Source of the DNA: Candidatus Cryptobacteroides sp.
GTDB lineage: Bacteria; Bacteroidota; Bacteroidia; Bacteroidales; UBA932
Assembly (NCBI GenBank): GCA_045598165.1
Contig: JAZLLN010000088.1
Span: 56,588 to 120,587 of the forward strand
Direction: 5' to 3'
Length of the DNA stretch: 64,000 nucleotides
Part shown: one piece after another, positions 46,240 to 55,384 of the stretch
Numbering within the stretch: the first letter of the stretch is position 1
How the letters are laid out: the number at the start of each line of letters is the position of its first letter
Translations under genes and position numbers: made by a program
Notes under the pieces: generated by a model
Seen by the model: the letters and a program-made list of their open reading frames with translations, nothing else
Databases searched by the model: none
Told to the model about the DNA's origin: nothing

Positions 46240-46247
46240 TATATTTG
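46240..46247 (+). promoter_or_regulatory. -7 promoter element (TATATTTG), probable promoter of the 46254-55384 gene run
   Basis: TAnnTTTG match 6 nt upstream of ATG 46254; downstream gaps are all 11 nt or less through 55384. Confidence 0.6.
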
Positions 46248-46253
46248 TAAGTT

Positions 46254-47048
46254 ATGATAATTCTCATCACGGGAATAACGTCAGGATTCGGCAAGGCGAT
46301 GGCTGAAAGACTGAGTGCCGACGGGCACAAGGTGTTCGGAACATTCCGCAAGGAATGTGACAGGATACCGGGGGTGACGTACCTCAAAGCTGATGTGCAG
46401 AATGAGGAAAACTGCAAAGCTGCTGTTGACAGCGTGGTCGCCGCTGAAGGTAGGATAGATGTTTTCATCAACAATGCAGGGATGGGGATAGGCGGTCCGC
46501 TGGAGTTCTGTTCCCTTGAGGATGCTCAGCTCCAGATGGATACCAACTTTATGGGAATGGTGCGTTTCCTGCATTTTGTTCTTCCGGTAATGAGAAATCA
46601 GGGTTCAGGAAAGATATTGTGTTTCAGCTCGATAGGCGGCCTTATGGGTCTGCCGTTCCAAGGCTTGTACAGTGCCAGCAAGTTTGCCATTGAAGGGTAT
46701 TGCGAGGCTTTGAGAATGGAAGTGAAGAGTTTCGGGATAGATGTTGTGGTGATAGAACCCGGAGACTTTGCCACAAAGTTCACGGCACAACGCAAATCTG
46801 TGACGGACGGAGAGGCTTATAGAATTTACAGAACCTACGCCGAGTCTCTGGCCAGCATAGAGAATGATGAACAGACGGGTCTGAAACCTGAATATCTTGC
46901 CGGGAAAATCAGCAGGATAGTGATGAAAAAGCATCCTGCCTGTTCTTATGTAATATCAACTTTCGAACAGTATCTTTCCACTGTTCTCAAGAGAGTTCTG
47001 CCTGCAAGATGGTTCTCGGCCATTCTCAGCAGTTATTATAAACTTTAA
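46254..47048 (+). CDS. Short-chain dehydrogenase/reductase
   Basis: TGITSGFG, NNAG, SSIGG, YSASK. Confidence 0.9.
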   Translation: MIILITGITSGFGKAMAERLSADGHKVFGTFRKECDRIPGVTYLKADVQNEENCKAAVDSVVAAEGRIDVFINNAGMGIGGPLEFCSLEDAQLQMDTNFMGMVRFLHFVLPVMRNQGSGKILCFSSIGGLMGLPFQGLYSASKFAIEGYCEALRMEVKSFGIDVVVIEPGDFATKFTAQRKSVTDGEAYRIYRTYAESLASIENDEQTGLKPEYLAGKISRIVMKKHPACSYVISTFEQYLSTVLKRVLPARWFSAILSSYYKL

Positions 47049-47059
47049 ATCACACGATT

Positions 47060-47881
47060 ATGCGAAAACTTCTTTTGCTGCCTCTGGCCATAATGATGGC
47101 CGCCTGTTCGTCTCAGGAACTTCAGGTTATGTCTTTCAACATCCGCCACGGTCTTGCCAACGACGGGGAGAATTCCTGGTCAAATCGTTGCCCCGCCACG
47201 ATTGCGATGCTGCAGGACCGGAAGCCGGATATTTTCGGTCTTCAGGAGGCGCGTGATTTTCAGATAGATTACATTTCAGAGAATCTTCCCGAGTACAGCA
47301 ATGTGGGAGTCGGCCGAGATGACGGAATCCGCGAAGGAGAGACAATGGCGATATTCTGGAACACATCCAAGATTGATCTTCTGGATTGGGGTACCTATTG
47401 GCTCTCGGAGACTCCTGAAGTGCCGTCAAAAGGATGGGATGCCGCCTGCATCCGTACCGCTACATGGTCGAAACTTAAAATGAAGGATAGTGGCAGGGAA
47501 TTCTTTTATGTCAACACGCATCTTGACCACATCGGGCCCATGGCACAGAAAAACGGTCTTGCCCTCATCGTCGAAAGGATTGCGACAATGAATCCCGACG
47601 GCATTCCTATGATTCTCACCGGAGACTTCAACGTGACGGCTGACAACCCCTGTCTGGAAGATCTCGACAACATGATGAAGAGCGCCCGTGTGGAGGCTCC
47701 GCATACCGACAACAGCATCACCTACAATGCCTGGGGCAATGAGGAGAATTCCTGCGTGATTGACTATATCTACTATTCAGGATTCGAGTCCTGTGACAAT
47801 TTCAAGGTAGTCAACCAGTCCTATGCCGGCATACCTTATGTCTCGGACCATTATCCCGTAACGACTACGCTGAAATTCTAG
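47060..47881 (+). CDS. EEP-family lipoprotein (phosphoesterase)
   Basis: Lipobox MAAC; MSFNIR, GLQE, VNTHLDH, GDFN, IDYI, SDHYP. Confidence 0.88.
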   Translation: MRKLLLLPLAIMMAACSSQELQVMSFNIRHGLANDGENSWSNRCPATIAMLQDRKPDIFGLQEARDFQIDYISENLPEYSNVGVGRDDGIREGETMAIFWNTSKIDLLDWGTYWLSETPEVPSKGWDAACIRTATWSKLKMKDSGREFFYVNTHLDHIGPMAQKNGLALIVERIATMNPDGIPMILTGDFNVTADNPCLEDLDNMMKSARVEAPHTDNSITYNAWGNEENSCVIDYIYYSGFESCDNFKVVNQSYAGIPYVSDHYPVTTTLKF

Positions 47882-47885
47882 GCTG

Positions 47886-49331
47886 ATGAAAAGACTGTTT
47901 GCAATTCTCACGTCACTTGCATTGCTTGTGGCAGTGGATGCCGGGGCGAAGATAACGTTCCCCTCGGTCATAAGCGACAATATGGTCCTTCAGCAGCAGA
48001 CCGAAGTTGCATTGTGGGGAAAGGCTGTGCCGGGCAAGACCGTGACAGTCAAGGCCGGTTGGGCAAAATCTCCCATAAGGACTGTCGCAGATTCTGAAAC
48101 CGGGAAATGGTCGGTGCGCATCTCAACGCCTGCTGCGGGTGGTCCGTATGAGATTACAGTCAGTGACGGAGAGGCTGTGACGCTGAAGAATGTCCTTGTC
48201 GGTGAGGTTTGGTTCTGCTCGGGCCAGTCCAATATGGAAATGCCTGTGAAGGGATATAATTCCCAACCGGCGAAGGGCGCGACTGAATTCATAGTGGGAG
48301 CGAAGGCTTCCCGCCCCATCAGAATCTGCAACATCAAGAAGAAATCTTCCAGGACTGTTGAAGAAGTCTCCGAAGGCAGCTGGGAAGAGCATGTCCCTTC
48401 CGTTGTGGCAAAGACCAGCGCCACGGCTTATTTCTTTGCCGAAGCTCTTCAGTCCGCCATTGATGTGCCTGTAGGCATCATTGTTTCCAGTTGGGGAGGC
48501 AGCAGCATCGAGACCTGGATCCCCCGTGAAGTGATAGCGAAGGATTTCCCCGAGTTCGACCTCAAGTTCCTGGATGACCCTTCCATAGAGGTTCACAACT
48601 ATCAGGCTCCCAGCCTTCTGTTCAACGGTCAGGTAGCTCCTCTTGTCCCTTATACCTTCAAGGGAATGATATGGTATCAGGGTGAGACCAACCGTTTCCG
48701 TCCCGCACAGTACATCCGTCTTCAGACAGCGTATGTTCAGGCAATGAGGGATATTTTCCAAGTTCCCGACGCTCCTTTCTACTTTGCTCAGATTGCTCCG
48801 TTCAAATACGGTGACGGCACCAATTGCGAACTGGGATATTTCAACGAAGCCCAGCAGAAGACTTTGGACTGCATTCCTCACAGCGGCATGGCGGTTCTCT
48901 GCGACATAGGTGAATTCGGTACGATACATCCCTGTGAGAAGCGGAAAGTCGGTCAGAGACTGGCTTATCTGGCCATGAGGCACGACTATGGCTTTGATTT
49001 CCTCGAGGCTGACGCTCCCCTCTATACGGGAGTGGAATTCAAGGAAGGCAAGGCTTACGTGAGTTTCAGCACGGGAACGGGACTTTCTCCGATGGGATGT
49101 GAACTCGGTGGATTCGAAATGGCCGGTGCCGACAAGGTTTATCACAAGGCGGTGGGAGAACTTTCAGGAAAGGACAACAGGGTAATCGTGGTAAGCTGCG
49201 CTGAAGTCCCGGAACCTGTTGCAGTCCGTTACTGTTTCCGTGACTGGAGTGAAGGTTCGGTATATAACAATTATGGAATTCCGGTTGCCCCGTTCCGTTC
49301 CGACGACTGGGCGAGGGAGGATGTTGAATGA
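47886..49331 (+). CDS. Sialate O-acetylesterase (SASA/SGNH) family protein
   Basis: Signal peptide; DNMVLQQ, GEVWFCSGQSNM, WGGSSIETW, WYQGE, IHP. Confidence 0.88.
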   Translation: MKRLFAILTSLALLVAVDAGAKITFPSVISDNMVLQQQTEVALWGKAVPGKTVTVKAGWAKSPIRTVADSETGKWSVRISTPAAGGPYEITVSDGEAVTLKNVLVGEVWFCSGQSNMEMPVKGYNSQPAKGATEFIVGAKASRPIRICNIKKKSSRTVEEVSEGSWEEHVPSVVAKTSATAYFFAEALQSAIDVPVGIIVSSWGGSSIETWIPREVIAKDFPEFDLKFLDDPSIEVHNYQAPSLLFNGQVAPLVPYTFKGMIWYQGETNRFRPAQYIRLQTAYVQAMRDIFQVPDAPFYFAQIAPFKYGDGTNCELGYFNEAQQKTLDCIPHSGMAVLCDIGEFGTIHPCEKRKVGQRLAYLAMRHDYGFDFLEADAPLYTGVEFKEGKAYVSFSTGTGLSPMGCELGGFEMAGADKVYHKAVGELSGKDNRVIVVSCAEVPEPVAVRYCFRDWSEGSVYNNYGIPVAPFRSDDWAREDVE

Positions 49332-50440
49332 TTATGGCAGACAGCCTGGAAAAATACGGTCTGGATCTCCACTGTACGATGATTCTCGAGGAATACCGCG
49401 GGAATCTTGATGTGTTTGAGAAAATCAGGAGCATAGCATGCGACATCCTGAAGAAGAACATATCCGACAACGGAATATACCTGAATGCCATCGAGTCCAG
49501 GGTGAAGACTGAGAAAAGCCTTGCCGGCAAACTGGAACTCAAGGGGTCGAAGTATTCCTCCCTTGATGACATCACCGATATCGTGGGTCTGAGGGTCATA
49601 ACGTTCTACAGTGATGAGGTTGACAAGATTTCCGCCATGGTGGACAGGCTGTTTGAAATAGACTGGACGAACAGCGTGGACAAGCGCAAGATGCACGAAC
49701 TCGACAGTTTCGGCTACAATTCGTTGCACTACGTCTGCAGGATTCCAAAAACGCTGTATAATGATCCCGAGCATCCTGAGATCAACACGTACAGACTGGA
49801 AATTCAGATGCGGACGGCTCTCCAGCACGTCTGGGCTACAATGTACCACGATACCGGTTATAAATCCGGAGTTGAGGTCCCAAAAGAATATCTCCGCAAT
49901 CTCAACAGGCTTGCCGGTATGATGGAACTGGCTGACGAGCAGTTCAGTCTGATAAGGACCAATATCAACAACTACAGACGCGGGGTGCAGAAGCTGGTGT
50001 CAAGCGGCCGTTTCGATGACGTGCCTCTTAACGGAGACTCTTTCAAAAGTTATCTTGAACTCAGGCCTTTCGACAAATTGGTCAAGAAGATAGCGGCTAT
50101 CAACCAGGCCGAAATCCACGAATCATCCATACTTCCCTACCTTCAGGTATTCAAACATTTCAACTTTGAGACGCTCGGCGATGTTGACAGGTTCATCAAG
50201 GAGAATAGTGATGATGCCTATAATCTCGCTGTATATCAGATAGGAAACACTGATTTGGACATTATCTCTTCCACGGTTGCCGTCCAGGACCTTTGTGTCG
50301 TCTGTATCCTGAAGAAAAAAGGTGGAGTCGGAGGTCTCAAGCGGATGTTCGACATTCTTGGCGGACGTTCCGATTACAACGAGGCAAGGGCGGAGAGAAT
50401 TGTGGAGACAGCCAGGCAGTTACCTTTTATGAATGAATAG
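49328..50440 (+). CDS. Small alarmone synthetase (RelA/SpoT synthetase-only protein) with C-terminal extension
   Basis: RVKTEKSLAGKL, DIVGLRVI, GYNSLHY, EIQMRT, QHVWATMYHDTGYK; no HD, TGS or ACT domain. Start may be ATG 49334. Confidence 0.88.
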   Translation: MIMADSLEKYGLDLHCTMILEEYRGNLDVFEKIRSIACDILKKNISDNGIYLNAIESRVKTEKSLAGKLELKGSKYSSLDDITDIVGLRVITFYSDEVDKISAMVDRLFEIDWTNSVDKRKMHELDSFGYNSLHYVCRIPKTLYNDPEHPEINTYRLEIQMRTALQHVWATMYHDTGYKSGVEVPKEYLRNLNRLAGMMELADEQFSLIRTNINNYRRGVQKLVSSGRFDDVPLNGDSFKSYLELRPFDKLVKKIAAINQAEIHESSILPYLQVFKHFNFETLGDVDRFIKENSDDAYNLAVYQIGNTDLDIISSTVAVQDLCVVCILKKKGGVGGLKRMFDILGGRSDYNEARAERIVETARQLPFMNE

Positions 50441-50442
50441 TT

Positions 50443-51024
50443 ATGGCAAACAGATATTTGGATACGACATTTGTAGACAAGGCGATAAAGTTCGCAGTGG
50501 ACGCCCATGCCAATACGGAACGCAGGGGAAAAGGTTTCCCTTATGTCATTCACGTTCTGGAGGCAATGGAAATCGTGGCATCAATGAGCAATGACCCCGA
50601 ACTGCTGGCTGCGGCCGCATTGCATGATACTGTGGAGGACACAGGAGTAACGGTGGAAGAAATCAAGTCCGGGTTCGGTGAAAAGGTTGCGAATCTTGTG
50701 AAAGCCGAGTCCGATGTGATTGACAGCAGTGTCAGTGAAACGGAAAGTTGGAGGTCACGCAAGCAGGCTGCAATTGACAGGCTCTCTTCGGCAAGTCTGG
50801 AAGCGAAGATGGTTGCCTTGGGTGACAAACTGTCCAATATGAGGGCTATTGCCAGGGATTATAAGAAATCAGGGGACAAACTGTGGGAGATTTTTCACGC
50901 TCCGGGTGGAAAGTCCGATCATGAATGGCACTACCGCGGACTTACCGAAGCTCTTTCGGACCTTGAGGGAACGGACGCTTATGCGGAGTTTATATCATTG
51001 ATAGATGGAGTTTTCAAAAGATAA
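50443..51024 (+). CDS. Small alarmone hydrolase (stand-alone HD domain, Mesh1/SpoT-HD-like)
   Basis: AH...RRGKGFPYVIHVLE, AAALHDTVEDT, FGEKVANLV, GDKLSNMR. Confidence 0.88.
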   Translation: MANRYLDTTFVDKAIKFAVDAHANTERRGKGFPYVIHVLEAMEIVASMSNDPELLAAAALHDTVEDTGVTVEEIKSGFGEKVANLVKAESDVIDSSVSETESWRSRKQAAIDRLSSASLEAKMVALGDKLSNMRAIARDYKKSGDKLWEIFHAPGGKSDHEWHYRGLTEALSDLEGTDAYAEFISLIDGVFKR

Positions 51025-51033
51025 TTTAACGGT

Positions 51034-51426
51034 ATGATTCGAAAATTCAGTCCGGTAGAAGGAAGAAATGCGGAAATCATCGAAGCGGTGATGAGCTGTC
51101 CGGAAGTTGTGGATCTTCCCGACGAAATGAAATTCAAAATCCGCCTTTGTGTGGAGGAGGTCGAGGAAAACATTCTCGATTATTCGGGTACAACCTGGGT
51201 GGAGGTCAGCGTGGATGCCGCCACGGACCAGTTGAAGGTGATGTTCAAGGATGGGGGCATAGAATTTGACCCTCTTGATTCTCCCGAGCCGGATATCACC
51301 TCTCCCGTTGAAGAAAGAAAGATAGGTGGGCTTGGAATCTTTCTGTGCAAGCAGATGATGGATTCCCTGGACTATCACTACGAAAACGGCAGCAATATTT
51401 TCACGATGGTAAAAAAAATCAAATAA
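51034..51426 (+). CDS. RsbW/SpoIIAB-like anti-sigma-factor Ser/Thr kinase (HATPase_c)
   Basis: N-box EEVEENILDY, D-box DGGIEFDP, G-box ERKIGGLGIFL, then DSLDY...N. Confidence 0.88.
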   Translation: MIRKFSPVEGRNAEIIEAVMSCPEVVDLPDEMKFKIRLCVEEVEENILDYSGTTWVEVSVDAATDQLKVMFKDGGIEFDPLDSPEPDITSPVEERKIGGLGIFLCKQMMDSLDYHYENGSNIFTMVKKIK

Positions 51427-51429
51427 ATT

Positions 51430-51732
51430 ATGAACGTAGAAATTACAAGGGAAAGCGCAAAAACTTTCGTCAAACTTTCAGGCAGGCTTGATACCACGAA
51501 CGCTGATCAGTTCCAGAAAGACATTACCCCTTTGATGGAGGATCCGAAGCCTGATTTTGAAATAGACTGTACGGATATGGAGTACACTTCAAGTCAGGGA
51601 TTGAGACTTTTCCTGATGCTTCAGAAAGCTGTATCTTCCAAAGGAGGCGCAATGGTCATGACAAATATGAAGCCTCAGGTCAAGGAAGTCTTCGATATCA
51701 CGGGATTCTCAAATATCATCAGAATCATATAG
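51430..51732 (+). CDS. STAS-domain anti-anti-sigma factor (RsbV/SpoIIAA-like)
   Basis: LSGRLDT, IDCTDMEYTSSQGLR (phospho-acceptor Ser context), EVFDITGF. Confidence 0.9.
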   Translation: MNVEITRESAKTFVKLSGRLDTTNADQFQKDITPLMEDPKPDFEIDCTDMEYTSSQGLRLFLMLQKAVSSKGGAMVMTNMKPQVKEVFDITGFSNIIRII

Positions 51733-52536
51733 ATGGATTTTGCTTCCCAAAGCATAGGACTGAGCACTGTCTTCAATGCCCGGGATTTGGGTGGTTATGT
51801 CCTTCCGGGAGGCCGTTCTGTAAAGAAAGGCCTGCTGTTGAGGGGCGGTGATCTTGCAAGGATTTCGGATGAAGAGGTCGCTGTACTGAAGGAAAGGTAC
51901 AATCTTTCGAAGGTGTTTGATTTCCGTACAAGTATGGAAGTCAAGAATCTGCCGGACAGGGAGATTCCCGGCGCAAGCAATATCTGGATGCCGGCATTCA
52001 ATGAAGGAAGCCAGAAAATGGAGGAGATGGTTCTTCCCAGGGAGGCGTACGTGGATCTTGGCGGGTGGCTGGTGAAACATGCAGGGAATGTCAAGGTGCA
52101 GTCGGTAGCCAGGGAAATGTACGCCGGGCTCGTCACGGACGATTTTACTCAGATGCAGTATGCGGGTTTCCTGCAGAACATAGTCAACACGCCCTCGGGG
52201 GCTGTGTATTGGCACTGTTCACAGGGAAAGGACAGAACCGGTATCGCCGCAGCCCTGGTCCTTACGGCGCTCGGAGCCGACAGGGACCTTGTAATGGCAG
52301 ATTACGGGATTTCCAATGAATTCTATAAGGAAGACGTTGACCGTTATTGCTCGCTTCTGGGTACCGCGGAGGAACGGGAGGTTATCCGGACTTTCATCGG
52401 TGTGAATCCTCGTTATTTCGGCCAGGCTCTTGACTTGCTCGAAGCGCAGTATGGTTCACTTATGGAATTTCTCACCGGCCCGTTGTGCCTGTCACGGGAA
52501 GACATTTTGATTTTACGCGAAAGATATACCGAATGA
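51733..52536 (+). CDS. Cys-based tyrosine/dual-specificity phosphatase (PtpB/IphP-like)
   Basis: FNARDLGG, LLRGG, FDFRT, HCSQGKDRTG (CX5R P-loop), DY.ISN. Confidence 0.88.
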   Translation: MDFASQSIGLSTVFNARDLGGYVLPGGRSVKKGLLLRGGDLARISDEEVAVLKERYNLSKVFDFRTSMEVKNLPDREIPGASNIWMPAFNEGSQKMEEMVLPREAYVDLGGWLVKHAGNVKVQSVAREMYAGLVTDDFTQMQYAGFLQNIVNTPSGAVYWHCSQGKDRTGIAAALVLTALGADRDLVMADYGISNEFYKEDVDRYCSLLGTAEEREVIRTFIGVNPRYFGQALDLLEAQYGSLMEFLTGPLCLSREDILILRERYTE

Positions 52537-53477
52537 AACGGACACTGACTTCAATATTGTTGTTTCTGTGCGCATTAAGCCTGAATGCACAGAAACTTAC
52601 GTTCGTTCCGCAATGGACGGCACAGACTCAGTTCGCGGGCTATTACATGGCACTGGAAAAGGGATATTACGCAGAGGAGGGACTGGATGTGTTCATCAAT
52701 CATCTCAAGGCCAATTCTTCCGAGACTTCCATGGATATGCTGCTGAACGGTAAGGCCGAGATTGTAGGCCAGCAGCTGATTCAGTCTGTCATTGCCCGTG
52801 CTGACGGAGTGAAACTGGTCAATGTTTTCCAACTGACTCAGGAAAGCGGGCTCTGTTGTGTATCCAGGACACCTATCAGTGAACCCAAGGATATGGATTC
52901 ACTGCGTGTAGGGCGGTGGAAGGTGGGATATGCGGATTTTTGCGACATGCTTGAAGCGTATACGGGCATCAGGGTCAACTGGGTTCCTTTTCTGAACGGA
53001 ATCAATCTTTTCATTTACGGTGCCGTGGACGCTACGCTGTGCTATTCTTACAGTGAACTTATCTCTCTCGATCTTGCAATCGGCAATATTCCGGAAGATC
53101 ACGTCATCCGATTCTCGAATTTCGGATATGAGTGTCCCGAAGACGGACTCTATGTCACGGAGGAATATTACAGGAAGAACAAAGAAACCGTCGACAAATT
53201 CGTAAAAGCTTCAAAACGCGGATGGGATTATGTCAGAGGACATAGGGAAGAGGCGTTGGAGGTCACATACAAATTCATTGAGGCGAACAGAATAAGCACT
53301 AACAGGGAACATCAGAAGAGGATGCTTGACGAGTATCTGAGTCTTCAGATCAACGGGCATACGGGATGCACGGACTATGCACCTGTGAGGGAACCGGTGT
53401 TCCGTGATATTGTCGGGGCACTGTTGAATACCGGTTATATTACAAGCAATGTTGAATACAGCGATCTGATCAAATGA
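52533..53477 (+). CDS. NMT1/THI5-like periplasmic substrate-binding protein (orphan)
   Basis: Signal peptide MKRTLTSILLFLCALSLNA; PQWTAQTQFAGYYMALEKGYYAEEGLDV; FVKASKRGWDY. Confidence 0.82.
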   Translation: MKRTLTSILLFLCALSLNAQKLTFVPQWTAQTQFAGYYMALEKGYYAEEGLDVFINHLKANSSETSMDMLLNGKAEIVGQQLIQSVIARADGVKLVNVFQLTQESGLCCVSRTPISEPKDMDSLRVGRWKVGYADFCDMLEAYTGIRVNWVPFLNGINLFIYGAVDATLCYSYSELISLDLAIGNIPEDHVIRFSNFGYECPEDGLYVTEEYYRKNKETVDKFVKASKRGWDYVRGHREEALEVTYKFIEANRISTNREHQKRMLDEYLSLQINGHTGCTDYAPVREPVFRDIVGALLNTGYITSNVEYSDLIK

Positions 53478-55384
53478 AAATCAAGGAATCTTTTTCTGCC
53501 AAGCTCAGTCTGGGCATTCTTGCGGTCACATCCGTGATATTCATCATAACCATAGGCATCTCCGCATTTTTCTCGCAGAAGATATTGGTCGAAGAGGCTA
53601 CCAAGTCTGCCGAGAGCCTCAGGGATGCGACTGTAGCCAATATAGAGAAAATTCTCAAGGACGTTGAAATATCAGTGATTGCATCATCCTGGCTTGTCAA
53701 AGAGAATATCAGCAATGAGGAGTATCTTTATCATATCACACATAAACTTGTGGAGGAGAATCCGAACATTGTGGGAAGTGCAATCGCTTTCGAAAAAAAC
53801 TATTTCCCCGGGAAATACTATTTCAGTCCTTACTCCTATCTCGATGCCGGGACAGGTGAAGTGATATCAAAACAGTTGGGAAACCAGCAGTATGATTATT
53901 TCTATATGGACTGGTATCAGATCCCGTCCCTTCTTGAGGGCCCCTGTTGGGGCGAGCCCTATTATGATGAGGGAGGGGGAGAGTATATGATGGCTACGTA
54001 CAGCTATCCTCTCAAGGATGATGAAGGGAAAGTGTTTGCCGTTATGACGGCTGATATTTCTCTTTTCTGGATTTCCGAGATGCTTGCCGGTATAAAGCCA
54101 TATCCCAATTCAAACGTGATGCTCATCAGCCGTAACGGCTCTTATATCTCACAGGGGTCGAAAACGGATCTGACGGGAGAAACGATATTCTCCACCTTGT
54201 ATTACACTGAAGACGGCGACGGCAGACTTGAAAAGGTAGCCCAGGCATTGAGTGAGGGGAAAAAGGGATCCATGCAATACAGACAGGGTACGGAAATTTC
54301 ATTTGCGGTTTTTGCCCCTCTCGACAACGGATGGAAAGCATGTATCACCTGTGGTTATCGGGAAATCCTTTCACGATTGGATCAGATGAGGTTGATTGTG
54401 TTCATTCTCAGCATCTTCGGAATCCTGGTACTCTTCATTGTGTCGTACGTTGCAATAAGGAGGATAATACAGCCTTTGCTTGAGTTCTCCAAATCGGTGA
54501 TGAACATAGCGAAGGGAGATTTCAACACCACTCTTCCGGAAATCCAGAGTGAAGATGAAATCAAGAAGCTCAGGGATTCCTTCGAGTATATGCAGACCTC
54601 TCTCAAGGAATACATAAGCGAACTGAAGACCACCACCGCGGCAAACCAGAAATTTGAAAGCGAACTCAGCATTGCCAACGCCATTCAGATGGCTATGCTT
54701 TCAAAGAACTTCCCGCATACGGACAGGGTCGACGCCTTTGCGCTGGTACAGCCCGCCAGGGAAGTCGGAGGGGACCTGTACGATTTCTTCATAGAAAAGG
54801 ACAGGTATCTTTATTTTGCCGTCGGTGACGTGTCCGGAAAGGGTGTTCCGGCATCTCTCGTAATGGCAATCACAAGGGCGGCATTCCGTTTCATTGCCAA
54901 AATGGGATTGTCTATGGAGGAAGTCGTGGGTAAGATGAACGACACTCTTTCCGAGGGTAACGATACGGGAATGTTCGTGACATTCTTTGCCGGAAAGATA
55001 GATTTGCAGACCGGAGAATTCGAATATTGCAACGCGGGCCACAATCCCATTGTGGTCATATCTCCGGACGGCAAGGCGGAATATCTCAAGCCGAAGTCGA
55101 ATCTTGCGCTGGGCCTTTTCCCCCAGTTCCCCTATGTCCTTGAGAAGGGCCGTGTGGAGAAGGGTTCAAGCCTGGTGCTCTATACGGACGGAGTCACGGA
55201 AGCTGAGCGCGTGGACAAGGAACAGTTCGGTGAAGAACAACTTATCGGCTGGGCCGGTAAATACCGTGGCAGTTATGCAAATGCTGACGAATCCTGCCAT
55301 CAGCTTCTGAATGAGGTCAAGGCATTCACTGCCGGCAATGAGCCGAATGATGATATAACGATAATGACAATAGACCTTAAATAG
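53474..55384 (+). CDS. Membrane sensor phosphatase: TM-dCache-TM-HAMP-SpoIIE(PP2C), RsbU-like
   Basis: Two TM helices flanking a Cache-like region (DWYQ..WGEPYYD..TADI); HAMP (QPL...IAKGDF...DEIKKL); PP2C motifs EVGGDLYD, GDVSGKG, MFVT, NAGH, LYTDGVTEA, DDIT. Confidence 0.9.
   Translation: MKIKESFSAKLSLGILAVTSVIFIITIGISAFFSQKILVEEATKSAESLRDATVANIEKILKDVEISVIASSWLVKENISNEEYLYHITHKLVEENPNIVGSAIAFEKNYFPGKYYFSPYSYLDAGTGEVISKQLGNQQYDYFYMDWYQIPSLLEGPCWGEPYYDEGGGEYMMATYSYPLKDDEGKVFAVMTADISLFWISEMLAGIKPYPNSNVMLISRNGSYISQGSKTDLTGETIFSTLYYTEDGDGRLEKVAQALSEGKKGSMQYRQGTEISFAVFAPLDNGWKACITCGYREILSRLDQMRLIVFILSIFGILVLFIVSYVAIRRIIQPLLEFSKSVMNIAKGDFNTTLPEIQSEDEIKKLRDSFEYMQTSLKEYISELKTTTAANQKFESELSIANAIQMAMLSKNFPHTDRVDAFALVQPAREVGGDLYDFFIEKDRYLYFAVGDVSGKGVPASLVMAITRAAFRFIAKMGLSMEEVVGKMNDTLSEGNDTGMFVTFFAGKIDLQTGEFEYCNAGHNPIVVISPDGKAEYLKPKSNLALGLFPQFPYVLEKGRVEKGSSLVLYTDGVTEAERVDKEQFGEEQLIGWAGKYRGSYANADESCHQLLNEVKAFTAGNEPNDDITIMTIDLK

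What the first reader, a model, noticed from the sequence alone, without database searches (positions are those of the whole stretch)
49328..51024. SAS-SAH bicistron; SAS carries an unassigned ~150-aa C-terminal domain
Seen: a synthetase with all four SYN motifs followed 2 nt later by a stand-alone HD hydrolase. After the synthetase core (from about 49960) is a helical region (...VPLNGDSFKSYL...FETLGDVDRF...) that is not recognisably TGS or ACT. Known: some SAS-SAH pairs act as toxin-antitoxin modules (toxSAS), producing (p)ppGpp or (p)ppApp or pyrophosphorylating tRNA. Inference: the extension may be the regulatory docking site for STAS or RsbW; alternatively the pair is a TA-like brake on growth.
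Basis: partly seen in the sequence, partly recalled or inferred. Interest (0 to 1): 0.62.

Follow-up and report, generated by a model that had tools for sequence, protein, structure and literature searches.

The report
Switch-linked alarmone synthetase, unknown tail domain
A gut Bacteroidales bacterium encodes a stress-nucleotide (alarmone) synthetase with an extra tail domain of unknown fold and, next to it, the matching hydrolase; across related species the synthetase is tied most tightly to a phosphorylation switch protein rather than to the hydrolase, which points to an undescribed way of switching alarmone synthesis on and off.

Summary
Window 49328-50440 encodes a 370-aa small alarmone synthetase (SAS) with all catalytic motifs. 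A 193-aa HD_4 hydrolase (SAH) starts 2 nt after its stop. SAS residues ~228-370 have no Pfam, PDB-sequence or Foldseek match, although the AlphaFold model is confident (pLDDT 96).

The toxin-antitoxin reading is poorly supported. Among 64 orthologous loci with enough flank, a STAS gene lies nearby in 48 and usually abuts the SAS. An RsbW-like kinase lies nearby in 44, and an SAH in only 29. Three diverged proteins fuse an RsbW-like kinase to this SAS.

The tail domain is not special to this clade. It is homologous (hhalign 97%) to the tail of a large family of ~355-aa single-gene SASs on prophage-like contigs (phrog_9640). There it evolves fast (18% identity). In the STAS-linked clade it is conserved (49% identity at the same core divergence).

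Best reading: the SAS is the output of a sigma-less partner switch, analogous to SiaABCD of Pseudomonas. The tail is probably the regulatory or docking domain, and the SAH is an optional brake. Binding, product and toxicity are untested.

This scan had already noted the partner-switch/SAS link in at least 29 other genomes. I found no paper describing it.

The parts
49328..50440 (+). Small alarmone synthetase (SAS), 370 aa. The RelQ/RelP-like synthetase core spans aa ~19-226. Its start overlaps the stop of the upstream esterase gene by 4 nt (ATGA).
   Evidence: Pfam RelA_SpoT E 1.8e-17. Catalytic motifs are invariant in 105 homologues. Foldseek top hits are RelQ/RelP, E 3e-9, target-normalised TM ~0.8. 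Junction sequence seen.
50009..50437 (+). C-terminal domain of the SAS (aa 228-370). It is a compact, mostly helical domain of unknown fold. Clade-specific polar motifs are IAAINQAE (254-262), TLGD (282-285) and TDLDI (308-312).
   Evidence: AlphaFold pLDDT 96.2. No Foldseek match in PDB or BFVD. No Pfam or PDB-profile hit. Homologous to the tails of prophage-contig SASs (hhalign 97%, E 9e-11). Invariant A256, E262 and D311.
50443..51024 (+). Small alarmone hydrolase (SAH), 193 aa, HD_4 domain, starting 2 nt after the SAS stop.
   Evidence: Pfam HD_4 E 2.2e-21. Best PDB sequence matches are stand-alone hydrolase-type chains 7QOC/7QOE (E 8e-22), Lmo0812 4YF1 and MESH1. The HD and ED motifs align (LHDTVEDT).
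51034..51426 (+). RsbW-like serine kinase (HATPase_c_2), 130 aa.
   Evidence: Pfam PF13581 E 4.7e-17. Weak NCBIfam RsbW/SpoIIAB hits. 41% identical to the kinase domain fused to the SAS in P0122.
51430..51732 (+). STAS protein (anti-sigma-antagonist type), 100 aa, with the phosphorylatable serine motif YTSSQGLR.
   Evidence: Pfam STAS E 1e-17; NCBIfam ant_ant_sig E 1e-20, above its cut-off. The motif Y-[IT]-S-S-x-G-L-R is invariant in 59 of 59 SAS-linked STAS proteins.
51733..52536 (+). Y_phosphatase3-family phosphatase (CX5R motif HCSQGKDRTG), 267 aa. Its role is unknown. In relatives it usually follows the SAH.
   Evidence: Pfam PF13350 E 1.9e-53. Present in 21 of 64 orthologous loci, mostly directly after the SAH.
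52533..53477 (+). Secreted NMT1/THI5-like solute-binding protein. It overlaps the start of the sensor phosphatase gene and is a possible co-receptor.
   Evidence: Pfam NMT1 E 6e-30. Found directly upstream of the PP2C gene in six other loci.
53474..55384 (+). Membrane sensor phosphatase: dCache/PDC sensor, HAMP and PP2C (SpoIIE) domains, 636 aa.
   Evidence: Pfam SpoIIE E 1e-50, MCP-like_PDC_1 E 4e-28, HAMP E 9e-11. Present in 35 of 64 orthologous loci. In 31 of those it is fused to the RsbW-like kinase in one ORF.

Best explanation
The SAS is the output enzyme of a sigma-less partner-switching circuit, and the SAH is an accessory brake.

Proposed mechanism (inferred, not shown):
1. The membrane dCache-HAMP-PP2C phosphatase, possibly helped by the NMT1-like binding protein, senses an external ligand.
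2. Together with the RsbW-like kinase it sets the phosphorylation state of the small STAS protein on its conserved serine.
3. One phospho-form of STAS then binds the SAS and changes its activity or assembly. The most likely contact is the conserved C-terminal domain or the long helix leading into it. In the alternative wiring, STAS pulls RsbW off the SAS.
4. The SAS makes a 3'-pyrophosphorylated nucleotide, most likely (p)ppGpp.
5. The co-transcribed SAH removes it, so the signal is transient.

Origin of the tail: the C-terminal domain is inherited from a large, uncharacterised SAS subfamily. The prophage-borne members of that subfamily are single-gene and have fast-evolving tails. In the Bacteroidales clade the same tail is held constant, as expected if it now reads an internal partner rather than a changing external one.

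Shown here: gene content, conserved linkage, the fusion proteins, intact catalytic and phosphorylation motifs, homology of the tail, and its contrasting evolutionary rates.

Inferred: every binding step, the direction of regulation, and the product.
For: Operon: seven genes lie on one strand with gaps of -4 to +9 nt from the SAS to the PP2C gene.

Linkage in 64 orthologous loci from different species with at least 3 kb on both sides:
- STAS nearby in 48, RsbW in 44, PP2C in 35, SAH in 29.
- STAS without SAH in 22; SAH without STAS in 3.
- STAS immediately upstream on the same strand in 52 of 74 loci, typically with a gap of -14 to +56 nt.

Gene order is shuffled while linkage is kept:
- Window and L030: SAS-SAH-RsbW-STAS-PTP-NMT1-PP2C.
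- L025/L026: RsbW-PP2C-STAS-SAS-SAH.
- Paludibacteraceae: PP2C~RsbW-STAS-SAS-APH-SAH-PTP.

The link persists in relatives of about 40% identity.

Fusion proteins: three diverged 521-aa proteins join an RsbW-like kinase to this SAS.

Phylogeny: all STAS-linked SASs fall in one clade (SH-aLRT 97) that holds no prophage-contig member.

The free component: in 31 of 35 loci the phosphatase and kinase are one membrane protein, which leaves STAS as the only free component able to carry the signal.

Intact motifs: the STAS serine motif is invariant in 59 of 59, and the synthetase and hydrolase motifs are intact.

Tail constraint: at matched core identity the tail is 49% identical in this clade and 18% in the prophage set. 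Partial correlation of tail with STAS divergence given the core is 0.38, against 0.17 for core with STAS given the tail.

Precedent: in SiaABCD a PP2C, a kinase and a STAS-like protein control a nucleotide-messenger synthase by direct binding to its helical stalk (PMC8457831, PMC7647112).
Against: - No binding, activity or expression data exist.
- The tail also occurs in homologues with no STAS nearby, so it cannot be a dedicated STAS receptor by origin.
- 13 of 64 orthologous loci have neither STAS nor SAH within 8 kb. One subclade lacks an adjacent STAS altogether.
- The window's own gene order separates STAS from the SAS by two genes.
- The mirror-tree signal is weak and confounded by shared ancestry and by rate differences.
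- The RsbW~SAS fusions fit an 'anti-SAS' kinase model at least as well as a STAS-binding model.
- The product is unknown.
Confidence: 0.62

Rival explanations
1. Anti-sigma-like wiring. The RsbW-like kinase, not STAS, is the direct partner of the SAS. It binds and silences the SAS as RsbW silences sigma-B. Dephosphorylated STAS captures RsbW and frees the SAS. The tail, or the N-terminal face of the SAS, is the RsbW docking site.
For: Three natural RsbW~SAS fusion proteins exist, and they occur in loci without an adjacent STAS. This is the canonical logic of partner switches (established knowledge of RsbW/RsbV and SpoIIAB/SpoIIAA). RsbW lies within 8 kb in 44 of 64 loci and is never present without STAS.
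Against: In 31 of 35 loci the kinase is fused to the membrane phosphatase, so sequestering the SAS would tether it to the membrane. STAS, not RsbW, is the gene that abuts the SAS. Four loci have STAS without RsbW and none the reverse.
Confidence: 0.2
2. One reading: the SAS-SAH pair is a toxSAS/type IV antitoxin-like or anti-phage module. The SAS is a growth-arresting toxin, its tail is an autoinhibitory sensor as in CapRel, and the SAH neutralises its product. The partner-switch genes are neighbours with another job.
For: - The SAH starts 2 nt after the SAS.
- SAHs neutralise all tested toxSASs (PMC7229694).
- The wider family is common on prophage-like contigs as a lone gene with a fast-evolving tail.
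- It matches phrog_9640 and, over the core only, the PADLOC defence candidate PDC-S33.
- Distribution in the order is patchy: full-length orthologues in 5 of 301 sampled genomes and in neither of 2 same-genus genomes.
Against: - The SAH is absent within 8 kb in 35 of 64 orthologous loci and abuts the SAS in few.
- None of the prophage-contig members has an SAH nearby.
- The STAS-linked clade holds no prophage-contig member.
- Its tail is conserved rather than fast-evolving.
- The locus is a seven-gene sensory operon among housekeeping genes.
- Similarity to CapRel is restricted to the core: sequence E 0.18, TM 0.35, and no tail match.
Confidence: 0.12
3. The linkage is real, but the tail is only an oligomerisation or stability domain. 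Regulation acts elsewhere, for example on the SAH, the PTP or the APH-like kinase, or on transcription.
For: RelQ-type SASs work as oligomers through their C-terminal helix (established knowledge of PDB 5DEC). The tail predates the STAS link. An SAH, a PTP and an APH-family kinase are also recurrent in these operons.
Against: STAS linkage follows the SAS, not the SAH: 22 loci have STAS and SAS without an SAH, against 3 with the reverse. The tail carries clade-specific invariant polar residues, which are unusual for a purely structural role.
Confidence: 0.06

Closest known systems
SiaABCD of Pseudomonas aeruginosa (PP2C SiaA, kinase SiaB, STAS-like SiaC, diguanylate cyclase SiaD)
   Same: It has the same parts list and probably the same logic. 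A HAMP-PP2C membrane phosphatase and a small kinase set the phospho-state of a small switch protein encoded beside a nucleotide-second-messenger synthase, and no sigma factor is involved. SiaC binds a helical stalk of SiaD (PMC8457831). The window's PP2C gives a below-cut-off NCBIfam hit to SiaA.
   Different: The output enzyme is a RelA/SpoT-type pyrophosphokinase, not a GGDEF cyclase. A degrading enzyme (SAH) is often co-encoded. The sensor has a dCache domain. The phosphatase and kinase are usually fused. No biochemical data exist. The proteins are not orthologues of the Sia proteins.
RsbU/RsbV/RsbW-sigmaB and SpoIIE/SpoIIAA/SpoIIAB-sigmaF partner switches of Bacillus
   Same: It has a PP2C phosphatase, a HATPase_c_2 serine kinase and a STAS protein with the conserved SSxGL serine.
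   Different: No sigma factor gene is in the operon. The gene that co-varies in position is an SAS. RsbW is only 130 aa. All NCBIfam hits to RsbW and SpoIIAB are far below their cut-offs.
RelQ/RelP (SAS1/SAS2) small alarmone synthetases of Firmicutes
   Same: They are the best sequence and fold match for the core (E ~1e-11; Foldseek E 3e-9, target TM ~0.8), with the same catalytic motifs.
   Different: Identity is 21-27%. The NCBIfam YjbM score is 55 against a cut-off of 320. There is an additional 143-aa C-terminal domain. The genomic context is different.
CapRel (fused toxSAS; PDB 7ZTB, 9ERV; PMC9712102)
   Same: Overall layout and length are the same: an N-terminal RelA/SpoT synthetase-fold domain plus a ~150-aa C-terminal regulatory domain in one ~370-aa protein. 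The wider family of the window's SAS is likewise found as a lone gene on prophage-like contigs.
   Different: The tail has a different fold: the tail model finds no CapRel match, and the whole protein gives TM 0.35. Sequence E is 0.18. The window clade is chromosomal, operonic and STAS-linked, with a conserved tail.
FaRel-ATfaRel type toxSAS with SAH antitoxin (PMC7229694)
   Same: An SAS is encoded beside a stand-alone HD hydrolase that could degrade its product.
   Different: The SAH is dispensable in most orthologous loci. No small cognate antitoxin gene is present. Subfamily membership could not be tested because the RSH subfamily HMMs were not available.
phrog_9640 (PHROGs family of unknown function)
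   Same: The window SAS matches profile positions 7-287 of 365 with E 2e-62. Prophage-contig relatives match full length with E down to 1e-201. The tails are homologous.
   Different: Members of the family on viral contigs are monocistronic and have no STAS, RsbW or SAH nearby. Their tails diverge much faster.

Membership tests
RSH superfamily, small alarmone synthetase (SAS) class | RelA_SpoT synthetase domain with the conserved catalytic motifs (RxK, DxxGxR, GYxSxH, ExQxRT) | tested here: met
   Pfam PF04607 E 1.8e-17, 64 bits against a cut-off of 27. The motifs are invariant in 105 homologues. The fold matches RelQ/RelP.
RSH superfamily, small alarmone synthetase (SAS) class | No HD hydrolase, TGS or ACT domains in the same protein | tested here: met
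   Only RelA_SpoT was found. The tail has no Pfam or fold match.
RelQ/YjbM equivalog (NCBIfam NF053588) | Score above the curated cut-off of 320 bits | tested here: not met
   55 bits.
CapRel fused toxSAS | C-terminal pseudo-zinc-finger antitoxin/sensor domain homologous to that of CapRel SJ46 | tested here: not met
   The tail model finds no PDB match (best E 3.3, no CapRel chain listed). The whole protein against 7ZTB gives TM 0.35 and rmsd 17. Sequence E is 0.18, over the core only.
CapRel fused toxSAS | tRNA pyrophosphorylation and phage-triggered toxicity | not testable with these tools
   Needs biochemistry and phage assays.
toxSAS-SAH toxin-antitoxin pair (FaRel/ATfaRel type) | SAS and SAH kept as a conserved adjacent pair | tested here: not met
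   The SAH lies within 8 kb in 29 of 64 orthologous loci and within 15 nt of the SAS in 6. 22 loci keep STAS and SAS without an SAH.
toxSAS-SAH toxin-antitoxin pair (FaRel/ATfaRel type) | SAS toxic when expressed alone and rescued by the SAH | not testable with these tools
   Needs expression in a laboratory strain.
Small alarmone hydrolase (SAH) | Stand-alone HD_4 domain with the His/Asp metal-binding and ED motifs of RelSeq/MESH1-type hydrolases | tested here: met
   PF13328 E 2.2e-21. Matches 7QOC/7QOE E ~1e-21, MESH1 E 1e-12, and the aligned LHDTVED motif.
Partner-switching system | PP2C phosphatase, HATPase_c_2 serine kinase and STAS protein with a conserved phospho-serine, encoded together | tested here: met
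   Pfam hits. ant_ant_sig is above its cut-off. The serine motif is invariant in 59 of 59.
Partner-switching system | A sigma factor as the sequestered target (classical Rsb/SpoIIA type) | tested here: not met
   No sigma factor gene lies among the seven operon genes or in the recurrent neighbours. The recurrent neighbour is the SAS.
SiaABCD-like partner switch controlling a nucleotide-messenger synthase | Direct binding of the STAS-like protein to the synthase, dependent on its phospho-state | not testable with these tools
   Only genomic linkage and fusions are available. No multimer prediction was possible.
RSH subfamily classification (Atkinson/Hauryliuk HMM set) | Best-scoring subfamily HMM | not tested
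   The HMMs are not available here, and no supplementary files of PMC7229694 are held.

The most novel reading that the evidence does not exclude
The ~143-aa tail is a new kind of regulatory module for RelA/SpoT-type synthetases, put to two uses. In prophage-borne single-gene relatives it would be a fast-evolving sensor of invading phage. In gut and rumen Bacteroidales the same domain would be fixed as the receiver that reads the phosphorylation state of a STAS protein, or binds an RsbW-like kinase. An external ligand sensed by a dCache-PP2C receptor would then switch alarmone synthesis directly, with no ribosome and no sigma factor involved. That would be a new post-translational control route for small alarmone synthetases, and an evolutionary bridge between anti-phage toxSAS-like proteins and ordinary signal transduction.
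Probability: 0.3. Interest if true: 0.8.

Novelty: new variant of a known kind. Interest (0 to 1): 0.62.

Why it matters
How small alarmone synthetases are controlled after translation is largely open. Known cases rely on transcription, on allosteric pppGpp or RNA, or on antitoxins.

A partner switch that gates an SAS would give a direct line from an extracellular ligand to an alarmone pulse. It occurs in Prevotella, Paludibacteraceae and related Bacteroidales, which are abundant in the rumen and hindgut. It would also add a second nucleotide messenger, after c-di-GMP, to the outputs of sigma-less partner switches.

The tail domain is a confident, compact fold with no known relative. It defines a large uncharacterised SAS subfamily: 1029 clusters at 50% identity score E<1e-30. 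The contrast between conserved and fast-evolving versions of the tail makes its function directly testable.

Tried and rejected
- **TGS, ACT or other known domain in the tail.** Rejected: no Pfam or NCBIfam hit, no PDB profile hit, and no Foldseek hit in PDB or BFVD.
- **CapRel membership.** Rejected.
- **PADLOC.** Only the candidate family PDC-S33 matches, and only over the synthetase core. This holds for the window protein and for nine relatives. It is not informative for the tail.
- **RSH subfamily classification.** Not possible: the HMMs are unavailable and no supplements are held for PMC7229694. The 2011 survey lists no SAS subgroup typical of Bacteroidia.
- **Cultured-phage GenBank search with the SAS.** Returned only distant core-only matches. 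The phage link rests on IMG/VR contigs and PHROGs.
- **Literature searches linking small alarmone synthetases with partner switching or STAS.** 0 papers. A looser query gave one unrelated SigB review. One query was too loose to be useful, and one failed on syntax.
- **Promoter and terminator scans.** Not above chance. The Bacteroidetes -7 motif TAnnTTTG is not enriched in the window (33 found, 28 expected). On the + strand near the operon it occurs only at 46240, upstream of three further genes, so the transcript start is unresolved.
- **Position of the tail relative to the active site.** Model coordinates are not exposed, so this could not be measured.
- No further structure prediction and fold search could be run, so the RsbW~SAS fusion could not be modelled.


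Full report
**What is there.**
The window carries a run of same-strand genes:
- SAS at 49328-50440, 370 aa.
- SAH at 50443-51024, 193 aa.
- RsbW-like kinase at 51034-51426.
- STAS protein at 51430-51732.
- Y_phosphatase3 phosphatase at 51733-52536.
- Secreted NMT1-like binding protein at 52533-53477.
- dCache-HAMP-PP2C membrane phosphatase at 53474-55384.

Gaps between these genes are -4 to +9 nt. The SAS stop (TAG, 50438-50440) is followed by TT and then the SAH start codon. The SAS start overlaps the stop of an upstream SASA-type esterase gene by 4 nt. Pfam and NCBIfam assign every gene as listed.

**The two enzymes look active.**
The SAS has RelA_SpoT over aa 57-181 (E 1.8e-17). The catalytic residues are invariant in 105 homologues of 38-72% identity: R58, K60, K68, D84, G87, R89, G129, Y130, S132, H134, E158, Q160, R162, H167 and W169.

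Its closest solved relatives are RelQ/RelP. The sequence E is about 1e-11. Foldseek gives E 3e-9 with target TM about 0.8. It falls far below the NCBIfam cut-off for the YjbM equivalog (55 against 320 bits).

The SAH is an HD_4 protein. It is closest to the stand-alone hydrolases 7QOC/7QOE and Lmo0812, and the HD and ED motifs align.

The same genome also has three long RSH-type proteins of 732, 715 and 625 aa. The SAS/SAH pair is therefore an addition to, not a replacement of, the usual stringent-response enzymes.

**The C-terminal domain.**
AlphaFold2 with 105 sequences gives pLDDT 93.3 and pTM 0.79. The core ends in a long helix (186-226), followed by a compact, mostly helical domain with two or three short strands (228-370). 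Modelled alone with 75 orthologous tails, it gives pLDDT 96.2 and pTM 0.91.

It matches nothing known:
- No Pfam or NCBIfam family. No consistent Pfam hit among 75 tails at E<=1.
- No PDB chain at E<=10 with a profile of the tail.
- Best Foldseek E is 3.3 in the PDB and 2.0 in BFVD.

It is not TGS, not ACT and not the CapRel C-terminal domain.

**The domain is not unique to this gene.**
A full HMMER scan of 1.84 billion representatives gave 7525 clusters at E<=1e-3 and 1029 at E<=1e-30. Many of these are 345-375 aa long and align over the whole length at 26-54% identity.

A scan of IMG/VR found 201 relatives on viral or prophage-like contigs. The 84 SAS-like ORFs read from the 80 loci kept are mostly 340-375 aa. 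These belong to phrog_9640 over their full length. The window protein matches that profile over positions 7-287 of 365 (E 2e-62).

A profile-profile comparison of the tails of the Bacteroidales clade against the tails of the viral-contig proteins gives 97% probability and E 9e-11 over 132 columns. The tail is therefore an ancestral feature of a large, uncharacterised SAS subfamily.

**What the SAS is linked to.**
I fetched 80 orthologous loci (51-66% identity) from different species. All are rumen, horse or other gut Bacteroidales: Prevotella, Paludibacteraceae, Ca. Cacconaster and Ca. Cryptobacteroides. I searched their ORFs iteratively with the window's proteins.

Among 64 loci with at least 3 kb on both sides:

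| Gene within the locus | Loci (of 64) |
|---|---|
| STAS | 48 |
| RsbW | 44 |
| PP2C | 35 |
| SAH | 29 |
| PTP | 21 |

- STAS without an SAH occurs 22 times. An SAH without STAS occurs 3 times.
- STAS is the gene immediately upstream of the SAS in 52 of 74 loci, with gaps mostly between -14 and +56 nt.
- The SAH either abuts the SAS (6 loci) or is separated from it by an APH-family kinase gene (PF01636, E 1e-18).
- Gene order differs between lineages while the linkage persists. Persistent linkage under shuffled order is the classical sign of functional coupling.
- Relatives of about 40% identity are still STAS-linked.
- In 31 of 35 loci the PP2C and the RsbW-like kinase are one ORF.
- The STAS motif Y-[IT]-S-S-x-G-L-R is invariant in 59 of 59.

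**Fusion proteins.**
Three proteins of 521 aa, 81-82% identical to each other, join an N-terminal HATPase_c_2 kinase domain to this SAS. They come from separate contigs and from two sources (NCBI and JGI). The kinase domain is 41% identical to the window's RsbW. The two whose contigs I read lie as lone genes with no STAS or SAH nearby.

**Phylogeny.**
I built a 90-sequence maximum-likelihood tree (quick search, SH-aLRT support only). Its rows were a subsample: every third genome-locus SAS, every second viral-contig SAS and every fourth representative. All STAS-linked SASs fall in one clade (support 97) that contains no viral-contig sequence. Inside it, one subclade lacks an adjacent STAS, and that subclade includes the kinase fusion.

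The viral-contig members are monocistronic. They are often flanked by opposite-strand genes, and have no recurrent neighbour and no STAS, RsbW, SAH or PP2C.

**Rate contrast.**
For pairs of proteins whose cores are 45-65% identical, the tails are on average 49% identical in the STAS-linked clade and 18% identical among the viral-contig proteins. The tail is therefore under much stronger constraint where a STAS/RsbW module is present.

A partial mirror-tree test points the same way. The correlation of tail with STAS divergence, given the core, is 0.38. The correlation of core with STAS divergence, given the tail, is 0.17. I treat this as weak, because shared ancestry and rate differences inflate such numbers.

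**Interpretation.**
The conserved unit is STAS-SAS together with its kinase and phosphatase. It is not SAS-SAH. The most economical model is a sigma-less partner switch whose output is the SAS. This is analogous to SiaABCD of Pseudomonas aeruginosa, where a HAMP-PP2C, a kinase and a STAS-like protein control a diguanylate cyclase through binding of the switch protein to a helical stalk (PMC8457831, PMC7647112).

The phosphatase and kinase are usually one membrane protein, so the free STAS protein is the likely messenger. The kinase-SAS fusions keep the canonical alternative open, in which RsbW holds the SAS and STAS releases it.

The tail is the best candidate for the contact or regulatory surface, for two reasons. 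It is the part that distinguishes this subfamily, and it is frozen in the STAS-linked clade. That step is inference. The SAH, present in under half of the loci, fits a brake that makes the signal transient. Where it is missing, the long RSH hydrolases could serve.

**The toxin-antitoxin reading.**
This reading is weakened by four findings:
- The SAH is dispensable in most orthologous loci.
- The prophage-borne relatives have no SAH.
- The tail is conserved in this clade.
- The setting is a chromosomal sensory operon.

It is not excluded that the enzyme is growth-inhibitory when unleashed. The wider family's presence on prophage-like contigs and its patchy distribution keep a defence-type ancestry plausible. 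Full-length orthologues occur in 5 of 301 sampled genomes of the order and in neither of two same-genus genomes.

**Novelty.**
I found no paper in the searchable library that combines small alarmone synthetases with partner switching or STAS domains. The 2011 and 2020 RSH surveys that I could read do not describe this architecture. Their supplementary tables were not available.

Earlier notes of this same scan report the partner-switch/alarmone-synthetase link in at least 29 other genomes. They also report prophage SASs with fast-evolving tails of unknown fold. Those notes agree with what I measured, but they are not independent evidence.

I class the finding as a new variant of a known kind. 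Both the partner switch and the SAS are known. Their coupling and the tail domain are not described.

**Limits.**
- There is no binding, activity, product or expression evidence.
- No multimer prediction or model coordinates were available.
- Contexts were sampled from the 80 best loci out of more than 599.
- Related species are not independent observations.

Noticed in passing
L046:5313-7697 (and 31 of 35 orthologous loci): The dCache sensor, the PP2C phosphatase and the RsbW-like kinase are fused in one ~790-aa membrane protein. In the window they are separate genes (RsbW 51034-51426, PP2C 53474-55384).
   Followed up: partly
L046:9113-9952 and about 17 Paludibacteraceae/Bacteroidales loci: An APH-family (PF01636) small-molecule-kinase-like gene of ~279 aa sits between the SAS and the SAH. 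The window's operon has no such gene. Its substrate is unknown.
   Followed up: partly
window 51733-52536: A Y_phosphatase3 'tyrosine phosphatase' with an intact CX5R motif follows the STAS gene with no gap. In 21 of 64 orthologous loci it follows the SAH. It might act on a nucleotide or on a phosphoprotein of the circuit.
   Followed up: no
window 52533-53477 / 53474-55384: A secreted NMT1/THI5-like binding protein overlaps the start of the sensor phosphatase gene by 4 nt. The same pairing recurs in six other loci (L030, L074, L075, L086, L095, L108), which suggests a binding-protein co-receptor.
   Followed up: partly
window 46254-49331: Three upstream genes (SDR 46254-47048, endonuclease/exonuclease/phosphatase-family protein 47060-47881, SASA-type esterase 47886-49331) are packed tightly on the same strand. 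The last overlaps the SAS start by 4 nt. The only + strand TAnnTTTG motif near the operon is at 46240. The transcript may therefore start about 3 kb upstream of the SAS. This upstream set is not conserved in other loci.
   Followed up: partly
G000:C83 (locus L004:682-2559, minus strand): A third long RSH-type protein of 625 aa is present besides the two of 732 and 715 aa, so the 2.4-Mb genome has four RelA_SpoT-domain proteins. Its domain make-up was judged from the translated sequence by eye, not by a domain search.
   Followed up: partly
G000:C65:116194-117091: A second PP2C (605-aa ORF) and STAS (109-aa ORF) pair lies elsewhere in the genome with no SAS beside it. Two further HATPase_c_2 domains sit inside 574-aa and 590-aa ORFs on C24 and C105.
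   Followed up: no
L110:8001-9566 and L111:2282-3847: The RsbW~SAS fusion genes lie alone between MFS transporter and peptidase genes, with no STAS, SAH or PP2C within the fetched flanks.
   Followed up: partly
L194:183-3131: A relative of about 40% identity has the order STAS - DUF3089 - SAS - HD_4, followed by two bacteriocin-type ABC exporters. This is another variant of the linkage.
   Followed up: no
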